From Eubacterium sp. (GTDB lineage Bacteria; Bacillota; Clostridia; Christensenellales; CAG-314), in contig CAVJWC010000005.1 in assembly GCA_963653425.1 (NCBI GenBank), positions 937-64,936 of the forward strand: a stretch of DNA of 64,000 nucleotides. The letters run 5' to 3'. The position numbers and the translations under genes were made by a program. Shown in pieces: positions 3,627 through 62,299 of this stretch; the first letter of the stretch is position 1, and every line of letters begins with the position of its first letter. The notes under the pieces were generated by a model, which was not told the origin of the DNA, did no database searches, and was given only the letters and a program-made list of their open reading frames with translations.

Positions 3627-3745
3627 TGTTTCGGGCAAAAACAGATTAAGGAAATCAATGTTTCGGTCAGAAACAGATTAAGGAAACCACAGTTTCGGGT
3701 AAAAACCGATTAAAGAAAACAAACGGCTTCGGTAAAGACGAAGTT
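3627..3745. repeat. degenerate tandem repeat (~33 nt x3)
   Basis: tgtttcgggcaaaaacagattaaggaaatcaa / tgtttcggtcagaaacagattaaggaaaccacag / tttcgggtaaaaaccgattaaagaaaac. Confidence 0.6.
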
Positions 3746-4747: not shown

Positions 4748-6223
4748 ATGAATATTTACGCGCCGTTAAGAGCCTTAGCAGAAACGGAAAACCTTCCCCA
4801 AACGCCCTTTTTCAGCAGAATTCAGGTGAATTCCGAAGCGGAAGTTTACGCCGTTGATTCCGACAGGTTTATCGCGGACGGCGCGGAAACCGACGCTCAG
4901 CGGAAAAGCAACCGAATGGCGATTTTTACGGAAACAGCTCGGAAACTTCTCGTTTTCGGACAGAAAACCCTTATAATTTCGGCTGAAAACGACGGACTTT
5001 TTGGCGACGCGAAAAGCGCGTTCCGAAAACGCATTTCCGTGAGCTGTTTTTCGCTTTCGGACGGGCGCGAAAGCTCTTCCGTTAAAGCTTGCAATCTCGG
5101 CTCATTTTCCGATGAAGAAGCTTCCGTTAACGCCGGCAACCTCGGCTTGCTTTCCCTAAAAAACCCCGATAACGAAGATTACTCTTCCGAAAACGCACGC
5201 GAACGTAGCGAAACCCCGTTTATTTCAGGCGAAGAAGCTTCCGTTAACGAAACTTCCGCTTATTCTCATTCGGAAAATGCCCGAAAAAACACTGCTTTTA
5301 TCTATACGGAAGAAGACTATCTGAGGCTAAAAAAGGTTATGGCTGAAAACGACGACGTGCGTTCGATATTCGTAATAGGTTCGTCCGAAGAAGTCAATCT
5401 GGCGAAACGGCTTGCCTGCGAATTTTCTCTGCCGTTGTCGGTTTTTCTGACTTTACCCGACGGCGATTCCGTTCTTTCGCCTTATTTTCTTATAAGAAAA
5501 GAGGGCAGAGCCGACCTTATCCCCTGCGACGTCCCGAAATTCGTGTTTTTTGACGTTGCGTCGCCCCTTTCGGAGCAGAATATGCGGACGGGAACGGGTT
5601 TTGTCGCCAAAGCTCTTACGGCTCTTCCCGAAGCGGAATATCTCGGCGGTGATTTCGAACCCGACCTTCTGAGCGTTATAAAAGACTGTCTTTTTACCGA
5701 TTTCACAAAGCCCACCGCCCCCAACAAACTCCTTTTACACGCGTCGCTTCTTAAAATTTCCGCCCTTAAAAACGCAGAAAACCGCTTTCTCTTTACTCCC
5801 GCCGACTGTCTTATTGAAACGCTCGGCTTTTACGGCGTTAACGGCAAAGCTTACGCTTACGTCTGCTCCCGTCTCATTGCCGAAGTCTACCTCGGCGTTC
5901 TTTCTGCGCCCGACCTTACACTGACCTTACCGCCCGATCCCGTAAGTCAATTCCTTCGTCTTAAACGTATCGGCGCGTCTCCCCGTCTCGTTCCGTCTCC
6001 CGCGAAAACCCTTGACTTTCCCTTTTTTACGGCAAAAATCGATAAACTCGTAAAAAGCCTGTCGATGTTCGAAGCTTCCTGCAACGGCGGAAAACTCCCA
6101 CTGACAGGAAACACCCTTGCGGACGCCCTTTTAGTTTCCGCCACAGTAAGCCCAAACAACTCCCTCCTCCGCGAAGTGTATTCCGCAGGATTTTTTCCCT
6201 GCTTTCTTCAAAGAAGAAAGTAG
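4748..6223 (+). CDS. hypothetical protein with internal repeat-encoded low-complexity insert
   Basis: 491 aa. AAGGAG RBS 7 nt upstream. 14 nt downstream of the previous gene, so likely co-transcribed. EEASVN repeats are encoded at about 5070-5290. No family recognised. Confidence 0.6.
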   Translation: MNIYAPLRALAETENLPQTPFFSRIQVNSEAEVYAVDSDRFIADGAETDAQRKSNRMAIFTETARKLLVFGQKTLIISAENDGLFGDAKSAFRKRISVSCFSLSDGRESSSVKACNLGSFSDEEASVNAGNLGLLSLKNPDNEDYSSENARERSETPFISGEEASVNETSAYSHSENARKNTAFIYTEEDYLRLKKVMAENDDVRSIFVIGSSEEVNLAKRLACEFSLPLSVFLTLPDGDSVLSPYFLIRKEGRADLIPCDVPKFVFFDVASPLSEQNMRTGTGFVAKALTALPEAEYLGGDFEPDLLSVIKDCLFTDFTKPTAPNKLLLHASLLKISALKNAENRFLFTPADCLIETLGFYGVNGKAYAYVCSRLIAEVYLGVLSAPDLTLTLPPDPVSQFLRLKRIGASPRLVPSPAKTLDFPFFTAKIDKLVKSLSMFEASCNGGKLPLTGNTLADALLVSATVSPNNSLLREVYSAGFFPCFLQRRK

Positions 6224-6247
6224 GCAAAGAAGCCTACCTTCCTTATT

Positions 6248-6273
6248 CTTCTTTCTTCGTGAGAAGAAAGAAG
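6248..6273. terminator. H-family hairpin acting as a probable bidirectional terminator
   Basis: cttctttcttc-gtga-gaagaaagaag (11-bp stem) between two convergent stop codons (6223 and 6287). The same unit recurs at about 53120-53150. Confidence 0.6.
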
Positions 6274-6286
6274 GAAAAAAGGAACT

Positions 6287-6849: not shown

Positions 6850-7060
6850 GTCCGCTTTAAGCCGAGTCCGAATCGCAATCTCGCTGAATTCGCAAACTCT
6901 TGGGTGTTGCAATCTCGTTGAATTTGAAATTCGCAAACTCTTTGAATTTAGAATTTTTTTGAATTTGGAATTCGCAAGTTCTTTGAATCGCAAGTTCTTT
7001 GGTGTTGCAAGCTTTTTGTTTTTGCAATTTCGCTGAATTCAAAGTTCTTTGAAACCGTTT
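6850..7060. repeat. tandem array related to the H family
   Basis: Repeated gaattcgcaaactctt / cgcaagttctttg / ttgcaa units. gcaagttctttgg is also a conserved H-family module. Confidence 0.5.
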
Positions 7061-7129
7061 TGCGCGCGACCGTTCGGTGTGTGCGGACCTGACGAAAGTA
7101 TACCATATAACGCAAAGGCTGTCAAGACG

Positions 7130-7365
7130 GATTTTTAGCCGAAAAAGGAAGGTTATCGTAATAAAAAAGCGTTTTTAATACGAAAAAACGACCGTCGCTG
7201 TCAATGTTTTTTAAGTCCGAAAAAAGAAAACGTTATCGCAGTCAAGGTTTTTAAGCAAAGAAACGACTATCACAGTCAAGGTCTTTAAGACTAAAAAAAG
7301 ATTATCGCAGTCAAAGCGGCTTTTAAGCAAAGAAAGACTATCGCAATTAAAACGGATTTCTGTCC
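7130..7365. repeat. degenerate tandem repeat (~42 nt x5)
   Basis: Unit (a/t)tatcgcagtcaaggtttttaagcaaagaaacgac repeated five times with drift. Followed by hairpin agaggaacc-cgaa-ggctcctct at about 7365-7392. Confidence 0.6.
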
Positions 7366-7446
7366 GAAAAGAGGAACCCGAAGGCTCCTCTTTGGATTAT
7401 CGTTTTTTGCGGTGATTTCAATCGTTTGGCATTCCCTGCAACACCC

Positions 7447-14759: not shown

Positions 14760-17700
14760 ATGAAAAACCAGAAACTGACAATAGTTCTTATGCTGTTGGT
14801 TCTTGCTCTTTTCGTAGGTTGCAGTCTGAACGTTCCCCAGAATGAACAGAACGATACTTCGAAAACGACTCTCAGTGTAAGACGCATCGACAAAGAAAGC
14901 GGATTCAACACCGCGTTCTCCGTTCAGTCCGATGCAAGCGAAAACCTCGTAATTAACGATTACGACAAAGTTTCCGTTATCGTCGAAATCGGCGACGGCC
15001 TGGCAGCTACCTACGTAAAAGGCAGTTATGCAAGCTTTGCTGATTTTTACGCTTCGGAAGAAGGTATGGCTCTCGCTGCAGAAATGAAAGCTACCCGCGA
15101 AAGCGCAATGGCTGAAGTTGCGGCGCTCGGCGCAGACCTTAACGGCGCGTATACTTACACCACTCTTCTTAACGGTTTCAGCGCGGTTATCGAATTCGGC
15201 AAAATCGACGAAATCGAAAAACTTGCCTGCGTTAAATCCGTAGAAATCTCCGAAGAATATTCCGCACCCGAAGTTACCGTATCTTCCGTAAACGAACTCT
15301 TCGGCGGCGACGGTATCTTTGATAACGAAACCCAGTATAAGGGCGAAGGCACTCTCGTTGCCGTTATCGATACCGGTCTCGATTATGACCACGACGCATT
15401 CCAGAAGGAACCCGACGTTCAGGTTATGACTCTTTCCGACCTTGAAAAAGTTTATCAGTACACCAACGCTTATTATCTTACCGAAATGGACGCTTCCGAC
15501 TACTATCTCAGCGGAAAGATCCCCTTCGCCTTCGACTATGCAGACGAAGACTGCAACGTAAAACCCTCCGATTACGCAGGCCGTAACGTTGACGCCGCTC
15601 CTCACGGAACGCACGTTGCAGGTATCATCCTCGGTAACAACGACGAAATTCAGGGCGCAGCTTGCAACGCACAGCTGGCTATGATGAAAGTTTTCTCCGA
15701 CGCCGGCGCAACCAGCAACATCACCATCGTTGCAGCTCTTGAAGACTGCGTAGTTCTCGGTGTTGACATGGCTAACCTTTCTCTCGGCGCAACCTGCGGA
15801 TATTCCGTTGCAAGAGACAGCTCCGCAGAACAGATGAACCGTATTATGGCTTTGGCTGAAGACGCAGGTCTTTCTCTCTTCTGCGCTTCCGGTAACTATA
15901 ATACCGCTCACCACGACACCAGCTACAACAGCCTGGTTCTTAACGAAAACCCCGATAACGGCGTAGTAAGCGCACCCGCTTCCTACAGACCCGCTTTGTC
16001 CGTAGGTTCCGTTAACTCTTCCAGAAAACTCGTCGCTTCCGTTGACAACGGCTCCAAGACCGTTGAACTCATCGACTCCGTCGACGCTAACGGCAGCGCA
16101 TACAGATTCATCGAAATCCTCGGTGAAGAAAGAGAAAAGACTTTCGAATACGTAGTAGTTCCCGGTTACGGCGAAGACGCGGATTACGAAGGCATCGACG
16201 TTACCGGTAAGATCGCTCTCGTTACGAGAGGCGGTATCACTTTCGGTGACAAACAGCTCATTGCAGCGGAGCACGGCGCTGTTGCATGCTTCATTCTTAA
16301 CACTTCTACCGAAGGCGTAAGAGCGCAGATCGCTGATCTTGCTATCCCGACCGTAGTAGTATCCGTTTCCGACGCTGAAGTTCTTAAGAACGCAACCGTC
16401 AAGAACGTTACCATCAACGAAGACAGCGAACTCTTCATCAGAAGTTACTTCTCTTCCATGGGCGCTCTTCCCGACGGAACCATCGGCGTTGACCTTATGG
16501 GCGTAGGCGGAAACGTTTACTCTTCCGTTCTTCACTCCTATGCGGTAGCTCAGGGTCTTGACGACGATTACGCAACCATGAGCGGTACCTCTATGGCATC
16601 GCCTAACGTAACCGGCGTTGCGGCTGCTGTTACCTCTTACTTCAAACAGAACTATCCTTACCTCACCAACGCTCAGATCAGAGATATGCTTTACGCTCTC
16701 CTTATGAGTACCGCTGACGTAGTTAAGGATTCCGACGGTCACGCTCTTTCTCCCAGAATGCAGGGCGCAGGCGTTGCCAACGTTTATAACGCAATCAATT
16801 CTTCCGCTTACCTTAAAGTTGCCAACACTCCGCTCTCCAAGCTCAGCCTCGGCAGCGACGTAGAAAAGGAAGGTATCTATACCCTTCGTTTCAGCGTAGT
16901 TAACTTCGGCGAAGAAGACATCACCTATAACGTAACCGCTGACGCTTATTCCGAAAAGACCTCTCAGGGTTATATCCTCGGTCAGCCTTACGCTTTCGAC
17001 GACGCTTCCTACGTAGTATACGCAGACGGCGAACTCGTTGAAGACAACAACGTAACCGTAAAAGCAGGCACCATGCTTTCTCTTAAGGTTATCGTTACCA
17101 TTACCGACGCAGACAAAGAATATATGGATCGTTACTTCAAGAACGGTATTTACGTTGAAGGTTTCGTATACCTCAAGACCGAAGAAGATTCCGACCTTTC
17201 TATTCCTTACATGGCATTCTACGGCGACTGGTACGGAAGCATGCCTTTGTTTGACGGCGTAACCGGCGGATCTTCTCAGATGAGCACCACCGGCCCCTCC
17301 TACAACGTAACTTACAAGTTCAACGGAAGCGGCGCAGGCCTTATCCTTCCCAAGGATTACACTGCATTCCCGTACACCGTAGCCGACGGATACACCACCC
17401 CCGCCAACAGCGATAAGTTCCTCGGTATCGGCAAAGAATTCGGCGTTGACTCCGTAGTAGTCACCACCCTCAGAAACCTTACCGATTTCGGTCTTTACTT
17501 CACCGACGCCATCACCGGCGAATATCTCCTTTACGGCGAATTCGGTTCCCTTATCAAAGCTTACAACTACTACGGATCTCAGGTAGTTAACGTAAGAGCG
17601 GAATTCTCCGAAGAAGAAGAAAAAGTTAACGCAAACAACTACAATCTTGCAAACAACCAGAGAGTCACCATGATGATGTACGGTACGTTTGAAGACAAGA

Positions 17701-20700
17701 CCACCCAGACTCTTTACTGGAACTTCTTCGTAGACTACGAGAACCCCACGATTCTTAAAGCAGAAAAAGAAGAAAAAGACGGTAAGACTCTCCTTAACCT
17801 CAGCGCATACGACAACGGCACCATGATCGCTCTTAAGCTTTACACCGAAAAGGACGGCAAGGCTATAGACCTTCTTAACGACACCGTTATTCCGCTTTCC
17901 GATACTTCCGTAGCGGGCGCAGACAACAATTACGTAATCGATATTACTCCTTATCTTGCAAATATCGTCGACAACACACTTATCGTTGAAGTCGTTGACT
18001 CTGCAAGAAACACTTCTTCCTACGTTATGGATCTTACCGGCGCTGAAACGACCGACGCCGTTATCGGCAACGTTGAATCTTCCGAAACCGATCAGGTCTA
18101 CTACATTTCTTCCGAAATGTTCGCTCAGGACGAAACTCAGATTTCCGCATACGATCCCGCTAAACCCGAATTCGAAGTTGAAGGCACCGTTCTCGTTGCT
18201 TACAACGGACAGGGCGGCGACGTAGTTATCCCCTCCGATCTCGGTATTACCTCTATCGGTAAGAAAGCTTTCTACGGTAACGAAACTATCACCAGCGTAG
18301 TTATTCCCGAAGGCGTAACCCTCATCGGCGAAGCTTCCTTCAGCCGTTGCTACAACATGACCAAGATCGTTCTTTCTTCCACGGTTGACACTCTTGACGA
18401 CGAAGCCTTCTACGGTTGCGTTAAACTCGGCGACATCAACCTCGAAGACGCTCAGATCACTTCTTACAACAGAATGTCCCTCGGCGGAAACAAAGCTCTT
18501 ACCACTATTACCATCCCGGCAGTAAACGGTATCGTTTCCATGAGCGGTGCGTTCTACGCTTGTATGAACCTCGAAGAAATCATCGTTGACGCTCAGCTCG
18601 GCAGATGTACCAGTGAATTCAACTTCTGTCCCAAACTTAAGAAGATCACCTTCAACGCTCCCGTTGCTCAGCTCGTAAACGCTTGCTTCAACTATCTTGA
18701 CGGTCTCGAAGAACTCAACTTCATGTCCACCGTTACCGAAATCGGCGGTTACACCTACATTAAGTATGCTAACAGATACGTTCTCTACTTCACGGCTTGC
18801 GGACTTAAATCCCTTAAGACCATCAACTTCTACGGCGACGTTAAGAAGATAACCGGTCTTGCGTTCAACACCTGTGAAAATCTTGAAAACGTTACCTTCT
18901 ACGGAAACATCCCCGAAAAGAACCTTTCCGCATTCGGTAACTGCCCGAAACTTTCCGGCGGTTTCACCCTCGGCGAAGGCAACGACAACTACATCAAGGA
19001 CGAATCCGGCGCTATCTATAACCTTGACAAGACCAAGATGTACAACCCCAACTGTTGGGAACCCGACGGAGAATTCGTTCTTCCCGAAACCATCACCAGC
19101 CTCGAAGCAAGAATGTTCGCTGACTCCGAAAAGATGCTCAGCACCAACATGGGTACCGTAACCGTATCCGATGACGGTATAGTCGACTTCGTTGGTATGA
19201 TGCAGACCGGCGATAACAAGCCCACCAGAACCAAGTTCACGAACATCGTCCTTCACGACGGTATCACCGCTATTCCCGACGAATGCTTCTCCAACAACAT
19301 TAACCTGACCTTCGACCTCAGCAACATTACCTCCTTCGGTAAGTACTGTCTGAGAAACACCGGTTTCACCTCTATCGTTCTCGGCGACAACGTAACCAAG
19401 ATCGATTACGCACCCTGGATCGAATGCGCTAAGCTCACCGAACTCTCTATCAGCGAAAAGACCAACGTTACGGGCTTCTATTACTGGTACTCCGGAACGG
19501 GCTTCACCACAATCGAAATCCCCTCTTACATCAACGTAAGCGAAGCTAACTACCTCGTTCAGAACAACTACAACGTAACCGAGATTACCCTTCCCGAAGG
19601 AACGACGACTCTGCCCTATTACTTCGCATACAATTGTCCCAATCTCGTAAGCGTTAAGAATACCGAATCCGTCGAAATCGTACGCGCCGGCGCATTCTCC
19701 GCATGTACTTCTCTGAAGTCCATCGACCTGCCCAACGTTACGACCATCGAAACCGCGTTCAACGGATGTACTTCTCTTGAATATGCAAACTACGGCGACA
19801 AACTTACGTCCCTTGGTGCTCTTGCATTCGAAGGCTGTTCCTCCCTTAAGAAGATTTATTATCCCGCAGGACTCAAGGTTAACGTATTCAACGTATTCAG
19901 CGTCTTCACCGGCGTAGAAGAATTCGTTGTAGACAGCGAAAACACCATGTACGCAAGCGACGATTACGGCGTTCTTTACAACAAGAGAATGAACTACATC
20001 GTTGCATATCCTCTTGCTAACCAGCAGGAAGAATACGTTGCTCCCGATAGCGCAATGTCCATGACGGCAAGCACTTTCGCATACGCTCCTTACCTTAAGA
20101 AGGTTTCTCTTCCCAACGTAAGAGCTATTGCCGACACTGCTTTCAGAGACTCTGCTCTTGAAGAAATCTATGCTCCCAACGCAGGCACCATAGGTTACGG
20201 CGCATTCATGAACACCAACCTTAAAGCTTACGATTTCAGCAACACGTCTTTGATTTACTCCGACGCGTTCAGAAACAGCAAGATTCAGGAAGTCGTTCTT
20301 TACGATTGTCTTGAATACATCAGCTCGACCGTATTCGCTTATTGCAGCGACCTCAGAAGAGTAGTTATCCCCGCAAACGCTCCCGAAATCATCTTCTCCT
20401 CCGTATTCGAAGGCTGTCTCGACATCGAAGAAATCGTTATCGAAGAAGGTTATCAGTACCTCGTTGAAGAAAACGACTTCATCATGAACGTAGACAAGAC
20501 TCAGCTTTACTACAGCTTCAACGATTCCGAAGAAGTAGTAATCCCCGAAGGCGTTATCTACGTAGGAACCAACGCGTTTGCTAACAGCACCAACCTTAAG
20601 TCCGTCGTTCTTCCTTCTACTTTGAAGCAGATCGGCTCTAAGGCATTCTACGGTTGCACGAACCTCGAAAAGGTAACCTTCCTCAGCGAACAGGCTCCCG

Positions 20701-20867
20701 ACCTCCTCGGCTACTCTTCCGAAGGAAGAACCCTTACCTACGAAAACTTCGTACACCACATCGAAGACGGTCAGACCAATATCGCAGTTTACTGCAAGGT
20801 TCTCAACGCTTCGTACAACAACTACCTGTTCAGAACTTACTTCAAGTCCTTAAACGAAATCAAATAA
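14760..20867 (+). CDS. giant surface lipoprotein: S8 subtilisin-like peptidase with PA insert fused to BspA-type leucine-rich repeats
   Basis: AGGAGG RBS. Lipobox LALFVGC. Catalytic triad read as D204 (VAVIDTGLD, codon 15369), H282 (HGTHVAG, codon 15603) and S611 (GTSMASP, codon 16590). PA-like insert ALVTRGGITFGDKQ. From about nt 18180, repeated xAFxxCxxLxxVxIPxxVxxIG units (LRR_5/BspA type) run to the C-terminus. Confidence 0.9.
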   Translation: MKNQKLTIVLMLLVLALFVGCSLNVPQNEQNDTSKTTLSVRRIDKESGFNTAFSVQSDASENLVINDYDKVSVIVEIGDGLAATYVKGSYASFADFYASEEGMALAAEMKATRESAMAEVAALGADLNGAYTYTTLLNGFSAVIEFGKIDEIEKLACVKSVEISEEYSAPEVTVSSVNELFGGDGIFDNETQYKGEGTLVAVIDTGLDYDHDAFQKEPDVQVMTLSDLEKVYQYTNAYYLTEMDASDYYLSGKIPFAFDYADEDCNVKPSDYAGRNVDAAPHGTHVAGIILGNNDEIQGAACNAQLAMMKVFSDAGATSNITIVAALEDCVVLGVDMANLSLGATCGYSVARDSSAEQMNRIMALAEDAGLSLFCASGNYNTAHHDTSYNSLVLNENPDNGVVSAPASYRPALSVGSVNSSRKLVASVDNGSKTVELIDSVDANGSAYRFIEILGEEREKTFEYVVVPGYGEDADYEGIDVTGKIALVTRGGITFGDKQLIAAEHGAVACFILNTSTEGVRAQIADLAIPTVVVSVSDAEVLKNATVKNVTINEDSELFIRSYFSSMGALPDGTIGVDLMGVGGNVYSSVLHSYAVAQGLDDDYATMSGTSMASPNVTGVAAAVTSYFKQNYPYLTNAQIRDMLYALLMSTADVVKDSDGHALSPRMQGAGVANVYNAINSSAYLKVANTPLSKLSLGSDVEKEGIYTLRFSVVNFGEEDITYNVTADAYSEKTSQGYILGQPYAFDDASYVVYADGELVEDNNVTVKAGTMLSLKVIVTITDADKEYMDRYFKNGIYVEGFVYLKTEEDSDLSIPYMAFYGDWYGSMPLFDGVTGGSSQMSTTGPSYNVTYKFNGSGAGLILPKDYTAFPYTVADGYTTPANSDKFLGIGKEFGVDSVVVTTLRNLTDFGLYFTDAITGEYLLYGEFGSLIKAYNYYGSQVVNVRAEFSEEEEKVNANNYNLANNQRVTMMMYGTFEDKTTQTLYWNFFVDYENPTILKAEKEEKDGKTLLNLSAYDNGTMIALKLYTEKDGKAIDLLNDTVIPLSDTSVAGADNNYVIDITPYLANIVDNTLIVEVVDSARNTSSYVMDLTGAETTDAVIGNVESSETDQVYYISSEMFAQDETQISAYDPAKPEFEVEGTVLVAYNGQGGDVVIPSDLGITSIGKKAFYGNETITSVVIPEGVTLIGEASFSRCYNMTKIVLSSTVDTLDDEAFYGCVKLGDINLEDAQITSYNRMSLGGNKALTTITIPAVNGIVSMSGAFYACMNLEEIIVDAQLGRCTSEFNFCPKLKKITFNAPVAQLVNACFNYLDGLEELNFMSTVTEIGGYTYIKYANRYVLYFTACGLKSLKTINFYGDVKKITGLAFNTCENLENVTFYGNIPEKNLSAFGNCPKLSGGFTLGEGNDNYIKDESGAIYNLDKTKMYNPNCWEPDGEFVLPETITSLEARMFADSEKMLSTNMGTVTVSDDGIVDFVGMMQTGDNKPTRTKFTNIVLHDGITAIPDECFSNNINLTFDLSNITSFGKYCLRNTGFTSIVLGDNVTKIDYAPWIECAKLTELSISEKTNVTGFYYWYSGTGFTTIEIPSYINVSEANYLVQNNYNVTEITLPEGTTTLPYYFAYNCPNLVSVKNTESVEIVRAGAFSACTSLKSIDLPNVTTIETAFNGCTSLEYANYGDKLTSLGALAFEGCSSLKKIYYPAGLKVNVFNVFSVFTGVEEFVVDSENTMYASDDYGVLYNKRMNYIVAYPLANQQEEYVAPDSAMSMTASTFAYAPYLKKVSLPNVRAIADTAFRDSALEEIYAPNAGTIGYGAFMNTNLKAYDFSNTSLIYSDAFRNSKIQEVVLYDCLEYISSTVFAYCSDLRRVVIPANAPEIIFSSVFEGCLDIEEIVIEEGYQYLVEENDFIMNVDKTQLYYSFNDSEEVVIPEGVIYVGTNAFANSTNLKSVVLPSTLKQIGSKAFYGCTNLEKVTFLSEQAPDLLGYSSEGRTLTYENFVHHIEDGQTNIAVYCKVLNASYNNYLFRTYFKSLNEIK

Positions 20868-20899: not shown

Positions 20900-20924
20900 G
20901 GACTGCCTCGGCAGTCCTTTTTTT
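20900..20924 (+). terminator. rho-independent terminator after the S8-LRR gene
   Basis: ggactgcc-tc-ggcagtcc followed by ttttttt. Confidence 0.7.
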
Positions 20925-21420
20925 GTGCTTTCTTTTTCCCCTACTTTCTTCAGAGAAGAAAGCAGGCAAAGACCGGCGTGACGCCGGACCCATTGTAGCT
21001 TCGCAAGACTATACAATTCTGTAGCCGAATGTTTTCCGTTCTTTCCTGAAAGAAAGAACCAAAGAACTTTCGGCTTTTTTGCAAAAAAGCCTACCAAAAA
21101 ACCTCAATGTTTGACATAATGAAAGTTTCTTCGCTTACTTTCTTTTTGCAAAGCTCGCATTACCTCGGCGGATACGCGAAGCTCAATGAAAGTTTCTTTG
21201 CCTTCTTTCTTTTCGAAAGAAAGAAGGTTTCTTCGCAGAAGAAAGTAGGAAGCGGTCGCCACAAGTTTCTTTGCCTACTTTTCATAAAGTTCGCATTACA
21301 TTAACGGTTACGCGAAGCTCAATGAAAGTTTCTTTGCTTACTTTCTTTTCTTAAAGAAAGTAAGATTCGGCATTTATCGAAGAAAAGCGAGTAAAAGCGA
21401 CTTCTTTGCGCTTACGACTT
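20925..21420. repeat. H-family palindromic mosaic repeat, locus 3
   Basis: Chain of CTTTCTT...AAGAAAG hairpins. Positions 20966-21106 are the reverse complement of 52972-53115 at roughly 90 percent identity by eye. Internal direct duplication of aagctcgcattac...gcgaagctcaatgaaagtttctttgc. Confidence 0.7.
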
Positions 21421-21560
21421 CGTGTTAAAATCAGACAAAAGACGTTTTTACAAACCGTTTCGTTTTGACGGGAACGCTGAACCGTTTCGGTCTGACGGAA
21501 CGCTGAACGGTTTCGTTTTGACGGGAACGTCGTACGGTTTTGTTTACAGGAGGAAATGCG

Positions 21561-26500: not shown

Positions 26501-26791
26501 TGCCTTCCCTTCTTTCTTCTGCGAAGAAAGAAGCAAAGACGCACCTACTTTCTTTAGAAAAGAAAGTAGGCAAAGAAACTTTCACCGTGGGGGCATTGAA
26601 AGACAACAGGCAGTCCGTTAACAAAAAAAGTCTGTAACTAAGGGGAAAGTATCAATTCTTAATAAAGTTTATTCAGAACGACGCCTTTCCCCACAATGAA
26701 GTTCTTTGTGCAACTTTCTCGAAAGAAAGTTGCAAGTTCTTTGGTACTTTCTTTCAAGAAAGTACGAAAACACACGAAAAGAGATTGATAT
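26501..26791. repeat. H-family palindromic mosaic repeat, locus 4 (inside the glycolytic operon)
   Basis: cttctttcttc-tgc-gaagaaagaag, ctactttcttt-aga-aaagaaagtag, gcaaagaaactttcaccgtggg, core gtatcaattcttaataaa, gttgcaagttctttgg, gtactttctttcaagaaagtac. Confidence 0.7.
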
Positions 26792-40627: not shown

Positions 40628-41611
40628 TCACCTCCGATGATTCCCGTTAGCGTCTTTTGCGGTATTTCCCGACAATTCAGACCGATTGTCCTTTGCGGTA
40701 ATTTCAGATAATTCAGACCGATTGTCTTTTACCATAGTTTCCGACAATTCGTTTTCTGCGTTCTTTGCGGTAGTTTCAGGTAATTCAGACAGACTGCTTT
40801 TTAAGGTAATTTCAGACAATTCGTTTTCTGCGTTCTTTGCGGTAGTTTCCGACAATTCGGACGCAGTGCGGTTCGAAGCGATTTCCGAGCGGATTTCTTT
40901 GAAAAGAACAGGAAACTCGGGCGACTCTCTTCTTTCCGACGGAGAAAGAGCTTCGCCGAAACCGGGTTCTCGGATTTTCCTGACGCTTGCGGGGCGGGGC
41001 GACAAAACTATAATTCTGTCGGCAACCGAAATGGCTTCGCCGATGTCGTGAGTCACGAGAAGAGCCGTTTTCTTCTCTTTTTTTATGGCTTTATACACGT
41101 CGTCGCAAACGCTCAGCCGAGTCTGAAAATCCAGAGCCGAAAAAGGTTCGTCGAGAAGAAGAAGGTCGGGCTTTATCGCAAGAGTCCGTATGAGAGCGGC
41201 TCGCTGGCGCATTCCTCCCGAAAGCCTACAGGGGTTAGCGTTACGGAAGTCCCACAGACCGTACTTTTTAAGCAGTCCGCATACGTAATTACGAACGTTG
41301 TCGTCAAGCGTTTTTTCCGTTTCGGGACCTAAAAGCACGTTCCTCATGACCGAACGCCATTCGAACAGGTAGTCGCGTTGAAGCATATAGCCGATTTTGA
41401 CGTTATTCTTAAAGACGACCTTGCCCGACGTGGGCGCAAGCGTTCCCGAGAGAATAGACAAAAGCGTGGTTTTTCCGCAACCCGAAGGACCGACAACGGC
41501 TATGAATTCCCCCCTTTTTACGGAAAAAGAAAGCCCTTTAAGCGCGTCCGTCTGCGCCTTTTCCGAGCAGTAGGTTAAAGTTACGTTTTTTATTTCAAGG
41601 AGATTTTCCAT
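40628..41611 (-). CDS. ABC transporter ATP-binding protein (NitT/TauT-like) with a repeat-encoded C-terminal tail
   Basis: GPSGCGKTT, LSGGMRQR and LLLDEPFSALD motifs. The last ~75 aa (SELSETTAKNAENEL x2, KDNRSELSEITA x2) are encoded by a tandem DNA repeat. Confidence 0.9.
   Translation of the reverse strand: MENLLEIKNVTLTYCSEKAQTDALKGLSFSVKRGEFIAVVGPSGCGKTTLLSILSGTLAPTSGKVVFKNNVKIGYMLQRDYLFEWRSVMRNVLLGPETEKTLDDNVRNYVCGLLKKYGLWDFRNANPCRLSGGMRQRAALIRTLAIKPDLLLLDEPFSALDFQTRLSVCDDVYKAIKKEKKTALLVTHDIGEAISVADRIIVLSPRPASVRKIREPGFGEALSPSERRESPEFPVLFKEIRSEIASNRTASELSETTAKNAENELSEITLKSSLSELPETTAKNAENELSETMVKDNRSELSEITAKDNRSELSGNTAKDANGNHRR
40640..40870. repeat. tandem repeat lying in frame inside the ABC ATPase 3-prime end
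   Basis: gtttccgacaattcgttttctgcgttctttgcggta and gtaatttcaga(t/c)aattcagaccgattgtc units, each duplicated. Confidence 0.6.
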
Positions 41612-45130: not shown

Positions 45131-45600
45131 CCTTCTTTGCTTGCTTTCGCAGTTCTTTCTTGAAAGAAAGAACCAAAGAACTACCGTTCTTTGCCTTCCT
45201 TATCCTTCTTTCTTCTGCGAAGAAAGAAGCAAAGACGCACCCACTTTCTTTGGAAAAGAAAGTGGGCAAAGAAACTTTCACCGTGGGTGTAAAGTGAAAC
45301 AATATGCAGTCCGCTTTTGGTAGAACCGTGCGAACCTTAACTGCGTGACAGTATCAATTCTTAATAAACCTCATTCAGAACGGCACATTCATCAATATTG
45401 AAGTTCTTTGTTGAGCTTTCCCCTTTAACTTACTTTTTTTAAGAAAAGAAAGTAAGCAAAGAAACTTTCTTTGTTTCTTACATTGAGGTTTTTTGCGCAG
45501 CTTTTTCCCAAAAAAGCTGCAAGTTCTTTGGTTCTTTCTTTCAAGAAAGAACAAGGAAGCCGGCAAAGTTTCTTTGCTGCTTTCTTTTCAAAGAAAGCAG
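45131..45600. repeat. H-family palindromic mosaic repeat, locus 5
   Basis: gttctttcttgaaagaaagaac, cttctttcttctgcgaagaaagaag, ccactttctttggaaaagaaagtgg, core gtatcaattcttaataaa. Positions 45480-45552 match 52975-53045 (cattgaggttttttgcgcagctttttcccaaaaaagctgcaagttctttggttctttctttcaagaaagaac). Confidence 0.7.
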
Positions 45601-51250: not shown

Positions 51251-52645
51251 ATGGAACTTAAAATATACAATACTCTGACCAGAACCAAGGAAGTTTTCCG
51301 TCCGGTCAAAGAAGGTCAGGCGGGTATCTATTCCTGCGGACCTACGGTTTATAAATACGCTCATATCGGCAACCTCAGGACTTACGTTTTTATGGATTTA
51401 CTCGTCCGTATTTTAAGATACGGCGGATATAAAGTAAAAAGCGTTATGAACATAACAGACGTCGGACATCTTTTAAGCGACGGCGACGAAGGCGAAGACA
51501 AGATGGAACGTTCGGCGCGCGAACAGAAAAAGACTCCGCGCGAAATTGCCGACGAAATAACCGCAGTATTTTTTGACGACCTCAAAAAGCTTAACATAGT
51601 AAGACCTACCGTTACCCCCAAAGCCACCGACAATATCCCCGAGATGATAGAGATAGTAAAAGTTCTTCTCGAAAAGGGATACGGTTACGAAATAGACGAC
51701 GGTATCTACTACGACGTAAGCAAGTTCAAGAACTACGGACAGCTCTCGGGCATAAGTCTCGAAGACCAGAAAGCAGGCGCACGCGTCGAAGTCAACAGCC
51801 AGAAGCGCAATCCCGCCGACTTCGCTCTCTGGAAGAAAGCCGAACCCAACCACATCATGCAGTGGGAAAGCCCGTGGGGTATGGGTTACCCCGGCTGGCA
51901 CATCGAATGTACCGCCATGTCCCTCAAATACCTCGGCACGCCCTTCGATATTCACACGGGCGGAGTCGACCATATTCCCATTCACCACGAGAACGAAATC
52001 GCTCAGGGCGAAGCTTACACCGGTCACAAGAACACTAATTACTGGATGCACAGCGAATTTATGCTCTTCGACGGCGGTAAAATGAGTAAAAGTCTGGGTA
52101 ACTGCTACACCGTTTCCGAACTTCAGGAAAAAGGTTACAGCCCCATGGTCTTCCGTTACTTCTGCCTCAACGCTCAGTACCGTCAGAAACTCAACTTCAC
52201 CTTCGCAGGCATGGATTCCGCTAAAAAATCGTTCGAAAGACTTCAGGAAACCCTCGCTAAACACCGCGATTCTTCCGCCTCTACGGACAAAGACAAACTC
52301 GAAACCTATAAGCGCGAATTTATCGAAGCCATAAGCGACGACCTTAACGTTCCCATGGCTCTCGGCGTGCTTTGGAAACTCGTTAAAGAACCCAAGTCCC
52401 ACGACGTTTACGAACTCGCTCTCGAAATGGACAAAGTCTTCGGTTTAAGCCTCGATTCCCTTCCAGAAATCAAACCCGCAACCGACGACAAACCTTCCGA
52501 CGAAGCCGTTGCCGTAGCCACCGAAAGACTCTCCGCAAGAAAAGCCAAAAACTGGGCGGAAAGCGACCGCCTCCGCGAAGTCCTTAAAGAAATGGGCTAC
52601 GCCGTCAAAGATAAACCCGACGGCTTCGAACTTACGAAAATCTAA
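51251..52645 (+). CDS. cysS: cysteine--tRNA ligase
   Basis: HIGNLR (HIGH) and KMSKS signatures. Zn-ligand context CGPTVY. Confidence 0.97.
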   Translation: MELKIYNTLTRTKEVFRPVKEGQAGIYSCGPTVYKYAHIGNLRTYVFMDLLVRILRYGGYKVKSVMNITDVGHLLSDGDEGEDKMERSAREQKKTPREIADEITAVFFDDLKKLNIVRPTVTPKATDNIPEMIEIVKVLLEKGYGYEIDDGIYYDVSKFKNYGQLSGISLEDQKAGARVEVNSQKRNPADFALWKKAEPNHIMQWESPWGMGYPGWHIECTAMSLKYLGTPFDIHTGGVDHIPIHHENEIAQGEAYTGHKNTNYWMHSEFMLFDGGKMSKSLGNCYTVSELQEKGYSPMVFRYFCLNAQYRQKLNFTFAGMDSAKKSFERLQETLAKHRDSSASTDKDKLETYKREFIEAISDDLNVPMALGVLWKLVKEPKSHDVYELALEMDKVFGLSLDSLPEIKPATDDKPSDEAVAVATERLSARKAKNWAESDRLREVLKEMGYAVKDKPDGFELTKI

Positions 52646-52649
52646 GTTT

Positions 52650-53185
52650 TCTTTTTCCTGCTTTCTTTTACAAAGAAAGCAGCAAAGAAACTTTGCTGTT
52701 TCCTTACCTTCTTTCTTTGGAAAAGAAAGTAGGCAAAGAAACTTTCATCGAGCTTTGCATAGCCGTTAGTGTAGTGCGAGTTTATCTTCTTTCTTCTGCG
52801 AAGAACCTACTTTCTTTGGAAAAGAAAGTAGGCAAAGAAACTTTCACCGTGGGTGTAAAGAAAAGCTAAACGCAGTCCGTATATAAAAAGAAAGTCTGTA
52901 ATCATAGAATTACCTATGGTTACAGACTTTTTCTTTTATATCGAGGTTCTTTTAGTTACTGACTTGCTCCCAATATTGAGGTTTTTTGCGCAGCTTTTTC
53001 CCAAAAAAGCTGCAAGTTCTTTGGTTCTTTCTTTCAAGAAAGAACGTAAAATATTCGGCTACCGAATTGTATAATCTTGCGAAGCTACAATGGGTCCGGC
53101 GTCACGCCGGTCTTTGGTTCTTTCTTCGTGAGAAGAAAGAAGGAAAAAAAGAAGGCTTGCTTCTTTCTCGCAAGAAAGAAGGAAA
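52650..53185. repeat. H-family palindromic mosaic repeat, locus 6 (most complete)
   Basis: Contains nearly all H modules: gctttcttttacaaagaaagc, ctactttctttggaaaagaaagtag x2, gcaaagaaactttcaccgtgggtgtaaag, gcagctttttcccaaaaaagctgc, gttctttctttcaagaaagaac, ccggcgtcacgccgg, ttctttcttcgtgagaagaaagaa. Confidence 0.7.
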
Positions 53186-53210
53186 GGCATCGCTATGCGA
53201 TAGCGATGCC
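53186..53210 (-). terminator. perfect palindrome overlapping the stop of the last module gene
   Basis: ggcatcgctat-gcg-atagcgatgcc (11-bp stem). On the minus strand it is followed by the T-rich tttccttctttctt. It encodes the C-terminal GIAIA. Confidence 0.5.
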
Positions 53211-54401
53211 TGTTAAGAAGAATTCACCGCCCGAGATTACGGCGCAGTTACCGTCGGAGAATCTGAGGACGCAGTCGGCGTCCATAGATTTTACGGTGCC
53301 GACGATTTTGGGCGCGGGGGACAGGGCGAGTTCCGAGCGCATAATCATACCGCTTGACCCTTTGTGGTAGAGGTAGAATTTTCCGTTATCGTAAAAACTC
53401 AGAGGTTTTTTGACGGGGAGGGAAGCAAGCGAGCCGATTTGAAGGGCGTAACTGCCGTTTGAAGAGGTTAAAGAGAGGGTAAAAGCGTAAGTTCCGCCGA
53501 GAGCTTCCGTAAGGCAAAGTGCTTGATTTCCGAAGGTGTGAGCGTGAACGATATCAGCCGAGCTTCCCGGAGGAAGAACGACCTCAGACCGTTCGCCGAG
53601 GGAGAATGTTCCGCCGCTAAGGGAGAGCGCGCGGGCATAGAGCTTGCCGCCGGCAACGTAGAGAACGAAGGAGGTTTTCTGCGTTTCGAAGGTAACTACA
53701 GCGTGGCTCGAAGCGGAAAAGTCCGACGTAAAAGTCACCGTTTGGGAAGTCGTGGCGGTTTCTGTGGGCGGAATGTCGAGTGAGAGAAGCCCGTTTTTCG
53801 AAAAGCCCGTAACGGGCAGGAACTTGGCTTTTTCTTGGTCGTAAATCTTGAAAAGTCGCGGATTCACGGCGTTTTTGTAGGTTTTAAGGACGGTTTCTTC
53901 TTCGTTTAGGAAGGATAACAATCCGTCCGAGTGAACGAGAAAGTAGTCGCATTCTTCGGCTGAAGTAAGCCCTATGTAGTGAGAGTCGGAGTTTTTGACC
54001 GCGCCGTAACCCGAAACTTCGAGCGTCATAACGGGAGAAAGAAAGCTCACAGAAAGCGGAGAAGAAATCTTTACGGAAACTTTACCGCCTCCCTTTACAG
54101 TGAACTTTCGTTGCAATTCTGTCGTTTGGTTTTGGCTGAGAGTCAGCTTTTCGGAAAGGAGCACCACGTTTCCCGAATATACGGTTAAAAAAGCCGTCGT
54201 TTCCGAAGAAGAGAGAAGCGAAAGGTTTAACGTCAGGTCGGTAGTGCCGTAAGAAACGAAGTTGAAGTCTGCCGTTTCGCCTTTTTTAAGGTTTTTTCTT
54301 ATAAAAAGCAGTTTGTTGCGTTTAAGAAGTTTCGTTTCGCCCGTTATACCGTTTTCGATAGCGCTTAAACGAGCCGAGAGTTCCGAAAGAAGCGTTTTCA
54401 T
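53193..54401 (-). CDS. unknown protein of the phage-derived module (possible fibre/spike-like)
   Basis: 402 aa. ATGA overlap with the upstream ORF. GGAGGA RBS. Short N-terminal helix (LLSELSARLSAIENGI) followed by beta-rich Ser/Thr-rich sequence. No family recognised. Confidence 0.65.
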   Translation of the reverse strand: MKTLLSELSARLSAIENGITGETKLLKRNKLLFIRKNLKKGETADFNFVSYGTTDLTLNLSLLSSSETTAFLTVYSGNVVLLSEKLTLSQNQTTELQRKFTVKGGGKVSVKISSPLSVSFLSPVMTLEVSGYGAVKNSDSHYIGLTSAEECDYFLVHSDGLLSFLNEEETVLKTYKNAVNPRLFKIYDQEKAKFLPVTGFSKNGLLSLDIPPTETATTSQTVTFTSDFSASSHAVVTFETQKTSFVLYVAGGKLYARALSLSGGTFSLGERSEVVLPPGSSADIVHAHTFGNQALCLTEALGGTYAFTLSLTSSNGSYALQIGSLASLPVKKPLSFYDNGKFYLYHKGSSGMIMRSELALSPAPKIVGTVKSMDADCVLRFSDGNCAVISGGEFFLTGIAIA

Positions 54402-56220: not shown

Positions 56221-56224
56221 ATTA

Positions 56225-56505
56225 TCTCCTTGTTTCCTTGTCCTTCTTTCTTCTGCGAAGAAAGAAGCAAAGACGCACCTTCTTTCTTTCGAAAAGAAAG
56301 AAGGCAAAGAAACTTTCATTGCGGGTGCAATATAGAGCTGAGCGCTTTTCGTATCCGTAAGAAAGTCTGTAATCGGCAAAAGTACCGATTCTTAATAAAA
56401 CTTTTGGGGAAAGATAACTTTCCCCTATATTGAAGTTCTTTATGTAGCTTTCCTCGGAAAGCTACGAGTTCTTTGGTTCTTTCTTTCAAGAAAGAACGAA
56501 AAGAA
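56225..56505. repeat. H-family palindromic mosaic repeat, locus 7 (inside the phage-derived module)
   Basis: cttctttcttctgcgaagaaagaag, cttctttctttcgaaaagaaagaag, gcaaagaaactttca, core gtaccgattcttaataaaa, tattgaagttctttatg, gttctttctttcaagaaagaac. Confidence 0.7.
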
Positions 56506-56507
56506 GT

Positions 56508-61800: not shown

Positions 61801-61859
61801 AACTAAATATTCGTCCTTTATAGAAAAGACGGTAAAAAGCGTTTTATTCGGCGAACTAA

Positions 61860-62160
61860 GCCTTTCGTTCAACGAAAAGAGATTTTCGTTCAATCAACCG
61901 AGCCTTTCGTTCAACGGGAACGGTATTTCGTTTAATAAGCAAAGCTTTTCGTTCGACAAGCAGGCTTTTTCGTTAAAAAAACAGGTCTTTTCGACGGTTA
62001 TCGTTAAAAGAAAACAAATCGCCCCATTTATCGGCTTTACCTTTCCTTTACAATAATCATAGGCATTCCGTTTTAATCATCGTGGCTTTTGAATTATCTT
62101 GGCTTTTGAATCAGCCGAGCCGTTGAGTCAGCCGAGCTTCCGAATAAACATGGCTTTTGA
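61860..62160. repeat. degenerate tandem repeats upstream of TerL
   Basis: (c)ttttcgttcaa(c) unit x6, then ggcttttgaat x3 and cagccgagc x2. Confidence 0.5.
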
Positions 62161-62299
62161 ATCGCCGTAATAAAGCTTTCCCGCAAGGCGGTTAATAGCG
62201 GAAGGGTTCGGTTGTCCTTTCCTGCCGTACGCGGTTTGGGCGATCGGCAGGAAGGAACCGAAAAGGAGGGGAAAATGCAAAAAGGAGAGCTTTTGCGTT

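What the first reader, a model, noticed from the sequence alone, without database searches (positions are those of the whole stretch)
52650..53185. Dispersed family of CTTTCTT/AAGAAAG hairpin modules (H family) with compensatory stem changes
Seven loci (6224-6286, 6850-7060, 20925-21420, 26501-26791, 45131-45600, 52650-53185, 56225-56505) are mosaics of the same short modules. The modules include cttctttcttc-tgc-gaagaaagaag, ctactttcttt-gga-aaagaaagtag, gcaaagaaactttcaccgtgggtgtaaag and a core gtatcaattcttaataaa. They also include attgaagttctttg / attgaggtttttt, gcagcttttt-ccc-aaaaagctgc, caagttctttgg and gttctttctt-tc-aagaaagaac. Stems differ between copies but stay palindromic: CTACTTTCTTT/AAAGAAAGTAG versus CCACTTTCTTT/AAAGAAAGTGG versus CTTCTTTCTTT/AAAGAAAGAAG, and gcagcttttt..aaaaagctgc versus aggctttttt..aaaaaagcct. 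This points to selection for structure or palindrome-templated spread. Every locus begins right after a stop codon, often between convergent genes. That layout resembles REP/BIME or BOX/RUP-type elements, but I do not recognise this sequence family.
Basis: seen in the sequence. Interest (0 to 1): 0.62.

Follow-up and report, generated by a model that had tools for sequence, protein, structure and literature searches.

The report
Hairpin-ended intergenic repeat family
The stretch after cysS is packed with copies of a real, genome-wide family of small hairpin repeats that behave like non-coding mobile DNA. Their conserved end module also turns up, patchily, in other gut Clostridia, an acetic-acid bacterium and phage contigs, and no known transposase goes with it.

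Summary
The window holds 23 CTTTCT..AGAAAG hairpins where 0.19 are expected by chance. The 1.56-Mb genome holds 188, in about 82 intergenic loci (20 kb), and 35 of those loci lie at contig ends.

The basic unit has three parts:
- a variable, covarying foot of 3-4 bp;
- an invariant CTTTCT(T)/(A)AGAAAG upper stem;
- a CAAAG(A) tail on one side only.

Clusters are polar, with the hairpin outermost and the tails pointing inward. The first unit after a stop codon follows this rule in 44 of 45 cases. That is a layout like terminal inverted repeats or BIMEs.

The family is missing at orthologous sites in the sister species and in 58 of 60 relatives, and about 1% of sampled Clostridia genomes have it. 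Where present it is multi-copy (up to 114 per genome). Carriers include Pseudoflavonifractor phocaeensis, the alphaproteobacterium Endobacter medicaginis and viral contigs.

There is no Rfam, plasmid, phage or literature match. There is no RAYT/Y1 transposase link and no recurrent neighbouring ORF.

Best reading: a non-autonomous mobile repeat acting at the DNA level, like REP/BIME or MITEs, with an unknown mobiliser. It is a new variant of a known kind. One listed locus (6850-7060) is not a proper member.

The parts
52658..52698 (+). Unit E: hairpin CTGCTTTCTTT-tac-AAAGAAAGCAG (52658-52682) plus tail CAAAGAAACTTTGCTG. It is the outermost unit, 12 nt after the cysS stop codon (TAA, 52643-52645).
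   Evidence: Read directly; core listed; hairpin>tail polarity rule.
52707..52748 (+). Unit B1: hairpin CCTTCTTTCTTT-gga-AAAGAAAGTAGG (one T.T mismatch in the foot) plus tail CAAAGAAACTTTCA.
   Evidence: (family D1).
52749..52805 (+). Linker fragment (gagctttgcatagccg...) followed by a truncated A hairpin CTTCTTTCTTC-tgc-GAAGAA.
   Evidence: e52 lacks 15 nt of the A unit compared with the other three composites.
52806..52861 (+). Unit B2: hairpin CCTACTTTCTTT-gga-AAAGAAAGTAGG plus tail CAAAGAAACTTTCACCGTGGGTGTAAAG.
   Evidence: GCAAAGAAACTTTC has 99 copies in the genome.
52889..52932 (+). Central 19-bp hairpin with a T-run. This is the only canonical intrinsic-terminator-like site for cysS. 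Part of its sequence (AAAGTCTGTAA) is shared with the central modules of the other composites.
52975..53013 (-). Inverted unit: box ATTGAGGTTTTTTG plus hairpin GCAGCTTTTT-ccc-AAAAAAGCTGC (tail>hairpin on the + strand).
   Evidence: (family D3).
53014..53045 (-). Inverted unit C: box AAGTTCTTTG plus hairpin GTTCTTTCTT-tc-AAGAAAGAAC. It has 34 identical copies in this genome, and the same 26-mer occurs 15-19 times in Endobacter medicaginis.
53046..53141 (-). Module D (..ATTCGGctaCCGAAT TGTATAAT cttgcgaagctaCAATGGGTCCGGCGTCACGCCGG TCTTTG) ending in hairpin TTCTTTCTTC-gtga-GAAGAAAGAA. There are 25 copies in the genome.
   Evidence: A diverged homologue exists in the sister species.
53160..53181 (-). 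Outermost right hairpin CTTCTTTCT-cgca-AGAAAGAAG. It abuts the terminator and stop codon of the convergent gene 53193-54401(-).
   Evidence: minus-strand terminator 53211-53185.
26501..26770 (+). Cleanest full composite, between tpiA and gpmI: A> B> central <box+hairpin <box+hairpin. Length about 257-270 nt.
   Evidence: DNA fold z = -8.2. The orthologous site in the sister species is empty.
45131..45600 (+). Compound locus between convergent genes: C> , full composite with an extra B-like unit, and a terminal unit <CTGCTTTCTTT.
56235..56507 (+). Full composite inside a minus-strand operon, so reversed relative to transcription. It lies between the stop codon at 56508 and the next gene start near 56222.
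20925..21420 (-). Inverted compound locus: module D, unit C, and two tandem B units with the GAAGCTCAATGAAAGTTTCTTTGC linker (136-nt period). It starts just after an ordinary terminator (20900-20925).
   Evidence: (family D15).
6197..6286 (+). Two-hairpin locus between convergent genes. The first hairpin overlaps the last codons of 4748-6223(+).
   Evidence: (family D18).
6850..7060 (.). Not a proper member. It is an array of AAGTTCTTTG / AAACTCTTTG boxes without CTTTCTT hairpins.
   Evidence: 1-3 BLAST hits only.

Best explanation
The locus is a pile-up of members of a non-autonomous, hairpin-ended repeat family that spreads at the DNA level. It is REP/BIME-like in its unit and cluster architecture, and MITE-like in having inverted ends.

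The elementary unit is a hairpin plus a one-sided tail. The upper stem CTTTCT(T)..(A)AGAAAG is fixed, the 3-4 bp foot is free to vary as long as it pairs, and the tail is CAAAG(A). Read on the other strand, the tail is the box (A)AGTTCTTTG placed before the hairpin.

Units are assembled into elements of about 260 nt and into larger mosaics. The hairpins sit at the outer edges and the tails point inward.

Shown here:
- the unit anatomy;
- the covariation in the foot;
- the cluster polarity;
- dispersal into about 82 intergenic sites;
- absence at orthologous sites in the sister species;
- a patchy, cross-phylum, multi-copy distribution.

Inferred, not shown:
- The hairpin-plus-tail end is recognised as folded single-stranded or cruciform DNA by a trans-acting enzyme that is still unidentified. 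This enzyme is not a Y1/RAYT transposase.
- New copies land in the short spaces just beyond gene ends and next to existing hairpins, which builds the mosaics.
- Arrays also grow by local tandem duplication.
- Any effect on transcripts (3' hairpins, read-through into the next gene) is secondary.
For: Abundance and location:
- 188 hairpins against 22 and 8 in the controls.
- About 82 loci covering 20.3 kb, essentially all intergenic, with 35 at contig ends, which means the repeats break the assembly.
- The small contigs bounded by these repeats carry housekeeping genes, not transposases.

Unit anatomy:
- The tail is on exactly one side in 159 of 186 hairpins and never on both.
- The foot covaries within the genome.
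- It also covaries across 91 distinct units from other genomes. Pairing at positions 1-4 is 96%, 67%, 69% and 64%, against 42%, 32%, 30% and 35% after shuffling.
- The counting tool gives a covariation score of 0.257 against 0.079 +/- 0.014 in shuffles (0 of 500 reached it) and 0.025-0.067 for slid controls.

Polarity:
- The first unit after a stop codon is hairpin>tail in 44 of 45 cases (p = 3e-12). The last unit before a start codon is tail>hairpin in 10 of 12.
- Twelve composites span an A-type left hairpin and a C-type right hairpin; 255-479 nt separate the two ends.
- Individual units show no orientation preference relative to transcription: B units 20 same against 12 opposite, and ++ 15 against -- 21 in other genomes.

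Gain and loss:
- The tpiA-gpmI and cysS 3' sites are empty in the sister species, whose coding DNA is 77-81% identical.

Patchiness:
- Only the two genomes of this genus show the repeated unit among 61 relatives; one more distant relative has a single match.
- 4 of 400 evenly sampled genomes of the class have it.
- The 20 motif-positive genomes checked hold 1-114 copies each, with zero control matches.

Recent activity elsewhere:
- Endobacter medicaginis has 29 identical 32-nt left ends and 19 right ends. They form 90-150-nt elements with inverted ends of about 45 nt, placed directly after stop codons.

Other:
- Tandem arrays with periods of 136, 265 and 374 nt.
- Uneven genomic spread has a precedent in the 'repeat deserts' of P. 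fluorescens SBW25 (PMC2718517).
Against: - No transposition has been observed, and no target-site duplication is visible at 12 composite ends or in Endobacter.
- No autonomous partner was found. There is no recurrent ORF near 117 loci, no multi-copy transposase in this assembly, and PF01797 is present in only 4 of 21 motif-bearing genomes.
- In viral contigs the unit is always antisense (box>hairpin) to the flanking genes, in 11 of 11 co-directional contexts from about 8 independent contigs. In this genome it always starts hairpin-first after stop codons. Both facts could instead reflect a function at the transcript level.
- In Endobacter the middle of the element differs between copies while the ends are identical. 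That is unusual for a simple MITE.
- No strain-level comparison or read data could be obtained.
Confidence: 0.62

Rival explanations
1. The units are cis-acting elements at the RNA level, kept by the host or by phages. After a stop codon they would act as 3'-UTR hairpins that stabilise or process the upstream mRNA. Alternatively they would act as nut-like sites, with a boxA-like GUUCUUUG next to a boxB-like hairpin, letting polymerase read through structured spacers.
For: - Hairpin-first placement 0-20 nt after stop codons in 44 of 45 cases, and the same placement in Endobacter.
- Strict orientation relative to genes in viral contigs, 11 of 11.
- Very stable folds: z = -10.2 as RNA for 52646-53192.
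- Composites sit inside operons (tpiA-gpmI and the capsid cluster) without any obvious terminator.
- GTTCTTTG resembles the boxA core of Gram-positive rrn leaders. This comes from my own knowledge and was not tested.
Against: - The distribution is far too patchy for a host regulatory signal: about 1% of the class, and only one genus among 60 relatives.
- Clusters are symmetric, so half the units are antisense in any transcript.
- There is no U-tract after the hairpins.
- Non-Watson-Crick stem positions show no G.U excess; most are C:C at the stem end.
- Whole composites occur in both orientations within operons.
Confidence: 0.15
2. The units are a classical REP/REPIN population mobilised by the RAYT-like gene of this genome (contig C3, locus L007:967-1773, minus strand).
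For: - The ORF matches NF047646 'REP-associated tyrosine transposase' over its whole length (E = 4.9e-9).
- It has the H-A-H motif and is single-copy.
- It is shared at 83% identity with the sister species, which also has the repeats.
Against: - The score of 36 bits is below the curated cut-off of 80.
- The residue at the expected catalytic tyrosine is Phe in G000, G001 and G005. This rests on my reading of the YIxxNP motif.
- The gene is not flanked by the hairpins.
- Homologues also occur in two relatives that lack the motif (G005, G013).
- The gene is absent from 19 of 20 other motif-bearing genomes, and PF01797 is found in only 4 of 21.
Confidence: 0.04
3. The palindromes are double-stranded binding sites for a dimeric DNA-binding or nucleoid protein, as REP/BIMEs are for gyrase and IHF in E. 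coli. Their multiplication would be a by-product.
For: - An invariant symmetric core CTTTCTT/AAGAAAG and an inverted-repeat tail (CAAAG-N2-3-CTTTG).
- No orientation preference relative to transcription.
Against: - A double-stranded binding site would not need the foot to stay complementary while its sequence drifts.
- The patchy distribution argues against a host factor.
Confidence: 0.07
4. The pattern is an assembly or binning artefact, or a purely local duplication.
For: - The genome is a 35-contig MAG.
- Repeats are nearly absent from the three largest contigs.
Against: - Copies lie on 26 contigs with unique flanks.
- Tetranucleotide composition does not separate repeat-rich from repeat-poor contigs.
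- Completeness is 94.9% with 0% contamination.
- The same units occur in isolate genomes.
Confidence: 0.01

Closest known systems
REP / BIME elements and REPINs of Enterobacteria and Pseudomonas (mobilised by RAYT Y1 transposases)
   Same: - A short extragenic palindrome with a conserved short motif on one side of the stem.
- Units combined in alternating orientation with a small set of linkers into mosaics and tandem arrays.
- Hundreds of copies, with lineage-specific sequence.
- Uneven genomic spread, as in the 'repeat deserts' of SBW25 (PMC2718517).
   Different: - No cognate RAYT was found.
- The conserved motif is CAAAG on the 3' side (CTTTG before the hairpin on the other strand), not GTAG.
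- The stems are AT-rich.
- The same end module is shared across phyla, whereas REP sequences are usually specific to a species or genus.
Bacterial MITEs with foldable inverted ends (Neisseria Correia elements, pneumococcal RUP, enterobacterial ERIC). This comparison rests on my own knowledge.
   Same: - Length of 100-300 nt with no ORF and inverted ends.
- Intergenic, often between convergent genes or inside operons.
- Break short-read assemblies.
- Can carry promoter-like or terminator-like pieces.
   Different: - No target-site duplication is seen.
- No parent IS with the same ends was found.
- Each end is itself a perfect hairpin with a covarying foot.
- The elements are highly mosaic rather than copies of one consensus.
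BOX elements of Streptococcus pneumoniae (boxA-boxB-boxC modules). This comparison rests on my own knowledge.
   Same: Modular build from a few short units in variable number, intergenic location, stable predicted folds.
   Different: The sequence is unrelated, and the units here are individually palindromic and polar. No sequence comparison with BOX was run.
IS200/IS605 ends and their PATE derivatives
   Same: Sub-terminal hairpins read as folded single-stranded DNA, with a short adjacent guide or cleavage motif.
   Different: - Those ends are in direct orientation, not inverted.
- They depend on a Y1 TnpA, which is absent from most genomes that carry this motif.

Membership tests
REP/BIME - REPIN/RAYT system | Short extragenic palindromic unit with a conserved short motif flanking one side of the stem | tested here: met
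   The CAAAG tail is on exactly one side in 159 of 186 hairpins. The motif differs from the REP GTAG.
REP/BIME - REPIN/RAYT system | Units arranged as inverted pairs, mosaics and tandem arrays in intergenic DNA, at high copy number | tested here: met
   with tandem periods.
REP/BIME - REPIN/RAYT system | A cognate RAYT (Y1/HUH) gene, typically flanked by the repeats, co-occurring with them | tested here: not met
   The RAYT-like ORF scores below cut-off, has Phe at the expected catalytic Tyr position and is not flanked by the repeats. It is absent from 19 of 20 other motif genomes. PF01797 is found in 4 of 21.
MITE | Terminal inverted repeats bounding a short non-coding element | tested here: met
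   Hairpin+tail units face inward at both edges. Endobacter copies have inverted ends of about 45 nt.
MITE | Target-site duplication flanking each copy | tested here: inconclusive
   No direct repeat is visible at 12 composite ends or at 11 Endobacter copies. No empty-site allele was available to define the exact ends.
MITE | An autonomous IS with the same ends in the same or related genomes | tested here: not met
   No recurrent ORF lies within 2.5 kb of 117 loci. G000 has no multi-copy transposase. Endobacter has no inward-facing pair of the left-end unit 1-3 kb apart. Most of the genomes checked are draft MAGs, so absence is not proof.
Intrinsic (Rho-independent) terminator | GC-rich hairpin followed directly by a U/T run | tested here: not met
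   The family's hairpins are AT-rich and followed by CAAAGA. The canonical sites at the primary locus are the separate hairpins 52889-52932 (+) and 53211-53185 (-).
Any Rfam RNA family | Match at or above the gathering score | tested here: not met
   No match in the window or in 32 related loci apart from tRNAs. The relaxed search gave only sub-threshold microRNA-precursor-like hairpin hits.

The most novel reading that the evidence does not exclude
The box plus CTTTCTT-hairpin module is the recognition end of a previously unrecognised superfamily of hairpin-ended non-autonomous elements that moves horizontally. The superfamily is shared by gut Clostridia, Acetobacteraceae and phages. It would be mobilised by an enzyme class other than Y1/RAYT transposases and directed to the first nucleotides beyond stop codons or terminators. 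Two cultured carriers, Pseudoflavonifractor phocaeensis and Endobacter medicaginis, would make the mechanism testable in the laboratory.
Probability: 0.3. Interest if true: 0.7.

Novelty: new variant of a known kind. Interest (0 to 1): 0.5.

Why it matters
Structured intergenic repeats shape operon expression, genome rearrangement and assembly quality. The best-understood class (REP/REPIN) is tied to RAYT transposases and is specific to a lineage.

This family has the same architecture but no RAYT. Its end module of about 30 nt is identical in bacteria from different phyla and in phage contigs, yet about 99% of sampled relatives lack it.

If the module really is a transposition end, an unknown mobilising enzyme and a gene-end-directed insertion mechanism remain to be found, and two cultured hosts are available for the search.

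Practically, these repeats account for 35 contig-end repeat loci in this MAG. They also fill spacers within operons (tpiA-gpmI and a capsid cluster) without canonical terminators.

Tried and rejected
- **RAYT link.** I found a RAYT-like ORF. It is not flanked by the repeats, has Phe at the expected catalytic Tyr position, also occurs in two relatives without the motif, and is absent from 19 of 20 other motif-bearing genomes. PF01797 occurs in only 4 of 21.
- **Promoter reading of module D.** Its TGTATAAT/TGTATAGT looks like an extended -10 box. The downstream gene is co-oriented in 11 copies and opposed in 13, so there is no preference.
- **Chimeric bin** as the cause of the repeat-poor large contigs. 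Tetranucleotide composition does not separate them, and the large contigs do not end in these repeats.
- **Empty sites from strains.** The metagenome scan with TpiA returned only relatives with 67% identity or less. Only the sister species could be compared.
- **Neighbouring-gene search** for a partner. There is no recurrent protein cluster.
- **Known-family searches.** Rfam, plasmids and phages by blastn and literature by sequence strings and keywords gave nothing relevant.
- **Target-site duplications.** None were seen.
- **rrn boxA comparison.** The MAG lacks an assembled 16S leader.

Full report
**What is there**

The 540 nt between the cysS stop codon (TAA, 52643-52645) and the convergent gene 53193-54401(-) hold eight hairpins of the family built on CTTTCT..AGAAAG arms and their variants, plus one truncated A hairpin. 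They also hold one ordinary terminator-like hairpin (52889-52932) and several shared linker modules. The same modules recur at 6197-6286, 20925-21420, 26501-26770, 45131-45600 and 56235-56507.

In the window the pattern CTTTCT-N(0-10)-AGAAAG occurs 23 times against 0.19 expected.

The seventh listed locus, 6850-7060, has only AAGTTCTTTG-like boxes, no such hairpins and almost no relatives.

**Genome-wide picture**

The window is part of contig C5 of a 1.56-Mb, 35-contig MAG. Earlier notes describe it as an uncultured gut Clostridia lineage.

- The genome has 188 hairpins, against 22 and 8 for the control arrangements.
- BLAST with the window loci defines about 82 loci covering 20.3 kb. Nearly all are intergenic, and 35 lie at contig ends, so the repeats break the assembly.
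- The small contigs bounded by the repeats carry housekeeping genes such as uvrA, uvrB, tkt, obg, ychF and serC, not transposases.
- The three largest contigs (770 kb) hold only four hairpins, although their composition matches the rest. The sister species shows similar clustering. Repeat-free 'deserts' are documented for the REPIN-type families of P. fluorescens SBW25 (PMC2718517).

**Anatomy of the unit**

Tabulating all hairpins with their flanks shows an oriented unit: a variable foot, the invariant upper stem CTTTCT(T)..(A)AGAAAG, a loop of 2-4 nt, and a tail CAAAG(A). The tail lies on exactly one side in 159 of 186 cases and never on both.

The main subtypes differ in foot and tail:
- A: CTTCTTTCTTC..+CAAAGACGCAC
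- B: CC[TA/TT/CA]CTTTCTTT..+CAAAGAAACTTTCA
- C: GTTCTTTCTT..+CAAAGAACTT
- D: ..+CAAAGACCGGCGTGACGCCGGACCCATTG..

The foot covaries. Pairing at positions 1-3 is 88%, 97% and 91%, against 40%, 79% and 42% after shuffling arms among copies. Nine distinct perfect 4-bp feet occur.

**Cluster polarity**

Four full copies in the window align over about 260 nt as A> B> centre <box-hairpin <box-hairpin, and twelve composites spanning an A-type left hairpin and a C-type right hairpin occur genome-wide.

Across the genome, the first unit after a stop codon is hairpin-first in 44 of 45 cases. The last unit before a start codon is tail-first in 10 of 12. Clusters are therefore bounded by hairpins with tails pointing inward, which is a terminal-inverted-repeat layout.

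Individual units and whole composites show no preferred orientation relative to transcription. No target-site duplication is visible.

The single strands fold far better than shuffled controls: z = -8.2 as DNA and z = -10.2 as RNA.

**Evolutionary distribution**

- The exact B linker is unique to this genome among 61 relatives.
- The same-genus genome G001 (UMGS692) has diverged versions of the same modules.
- G001 has empty tpiA-gpmI and cysS 3' sites.
- The generic unit TTCTTTG-N-CTTTCT-N-AGAAAG is repeated only in these two genomes among 61 relatives; one more distant relative has a single match. It is found in 4 of 400 evenly sampled genomes of the class.
- A scan of one genome per species found it in more than 117 stretches. 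Most are gut or rumen Clostridia MAGs, with a few Proteobacteria.
- The 20 motif-positive genomes checked hold 1-114 copies each, with zero control matches.
- Carriers include the isolates Pseudoflavonifractor phocaeensis (29 copies) and Endobacter medicaginis (19 right ends and 38 left ends, 29 of them identical over 32 nt). In Endobacter the units form 90-150-nt elements with inverted ends of about 45 nt, placed directly after stop codons.
- The Endobacter right end is identical to unit C of this window.
- 35 stretches in IMG/VR viral contigs also carry the unit.
- Across 91 distinct foreign units the four foot pairs covary strongly. The counting tool gives a covariation score of 0.257 against 0.079 in shuffles (0 of 500 reached it) and 0.067 or less when the partners are slid.

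**What it is not**

- No Rfam family matches, and there is no plasmid or phage match.
- No paper holds the sequences.
- It is not a set of intrinsic terminators, because the hairpins are AT-rich and have no T-run.
- It is not a REP/RAYT system in the strict sense. The one RAYT-like ORF scores below cut-off, has Phe at the expected catalytic Tyr position, is not flanked by repeats, occurs in two relatives without the motif, and is absent from 19 of 20 other motif-bearing genomes. Y1 transposase domains occur in only 4 of 21.
- No ORF recurs near the units, and the MAG has no multi-copy transposase.

**Interpretation**

The evidence that favours a selfish, non-autonomous DNA element with a hairpin-plus-tail end read in folded form is:
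- a fixed upper stem with a free but paired foot;
- a one-sided tail and inward-facing ends;
- mosaic and tandem growth;
- gain and loss between sister species;
- extreme patchiness combined with multi-copy presence and cross-phylum identity.

I put this reading at about 0.62. The mobilising enzyme is unknown.

The main rival is a transcript-level role, at about 0.15. Supporting it are the hairpin-first placement after stop codons and the orientation in viral contigs, where the unit is antisense to flanking genes in 11 of 11 co-directional contexts. Against it are the symmetry of the clusters, the lack of U-tracts and the 1% distribution.

**Verdict**

This is a new variant of a known kind of element. 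It is of moderate interest, mainly because of the cross-phylum conserved end module and the absence of any known mobiliser.

Noticed in passing
whole genome: contigs C1-C3, C10, C11, C18, C19, C21, C22 against the rest: The hairpin family is almost absent from about 980 kb of the assembly: 4 hairpins on the three largest contigs (770 kb). It reaches 3-30 per 10 kb elsewhere. Tetranucleotide composition is the same in both parts. The sister genome also clusters its copies (G001:C2, 123-190 kb). This looks like 'repeat deserts'.
   Followed up: partly
G000 contig C3:106835-107638 (L007:967-1773, minus strand): A single-copy RAYT-like gene (NF047646, 36 bits) with an HAH motif, Phe where the catalytic Tyr is expected (Tyr is kept in G013) and a C-terminal HTH-like extension. 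It sits behind a long 5' leader with a strong TTGACT-N17-TATAAT promoter. It may be a domesticated HUH protein.
   Followed up: partly
window 7100-7400, 21420-21550, 3627-3722, 61834-62190, 40652-40867: Several unrelated short tandem-repeat arrays (17-72-nt periods) lie upstream of, or inside, genes. Examples are three copies of TGTTTCGGGCAAAAACAGATTAAGGAAATCAA, and aaccgtttcgttttgacgggaacgctg repeats just before the gene at 21540.
   Followed up: no
window 6850-7060: An array of six AAGTTCTTTG / AAACTCTTTG boxes interleaved with GAATT(C/T) motifs, with no CTTTCTT hairpins. It shares the tail or box of the family but is otherwise unique in the genome.
   Followed up: partly
window 14760-20867 (+), with paralogues on C1, C4, C15 and C35: A family of giant proteins of about 2,000 aa, 67-84% identical to one another, is the only substantial set of protein paralogues in the MAG. 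A tandem array of about 130-aa proteins lies at the end of C2.
   Followed up: no
L016, L023, L054, L065, L105, L109, L113, L119 (Oscillospiraceae SIG615): A 245-nt MITE with its own inverted ends (ATACTA(T/A)TCTCA...) and probable TA flanks carries the box+hairpin module internally, 65 nt from its right end. The module therefore also rides inside another kind of element.
   Followed up: partly
L293, L313, L311, L286, L284 (IMG/VR viral contigs, GC about 0.32) and L034, L050, L089: In these contigs the unit is followed by a second conserved hairpin (T)GGGG-loop-CCCCAAGGTCTT and preceded by GCAAAAnnnnnTTTTGC. This three-hairpin module occurs 2-3 times per contig and has no Rfam match.
   Followed up: partly
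window 53060-53080 and 24 other copies of module D: Module D contains TGTATAAT / TGTATAGT, an extended -10-like box. In about half of the copies it lies 36-110 nt upstream of a co-oriented start codon, so some copies may supply a promoter.
   Followed up: partly
L039, L058, L063, L092, L104 (RUG12422 and similar MAGs): In these genomes the unit is the last of three hairpins in an element of about 100 nt (GTTTTTGAAA-CCGCnnnn-GAGKMACGA-nnnnGCGG...). It is followed by degenerate CGT(A/T)CCCC / CCCCGTAA repeats. The first hairpin has a conserved loop and a covarying stem.
   Followed up: no
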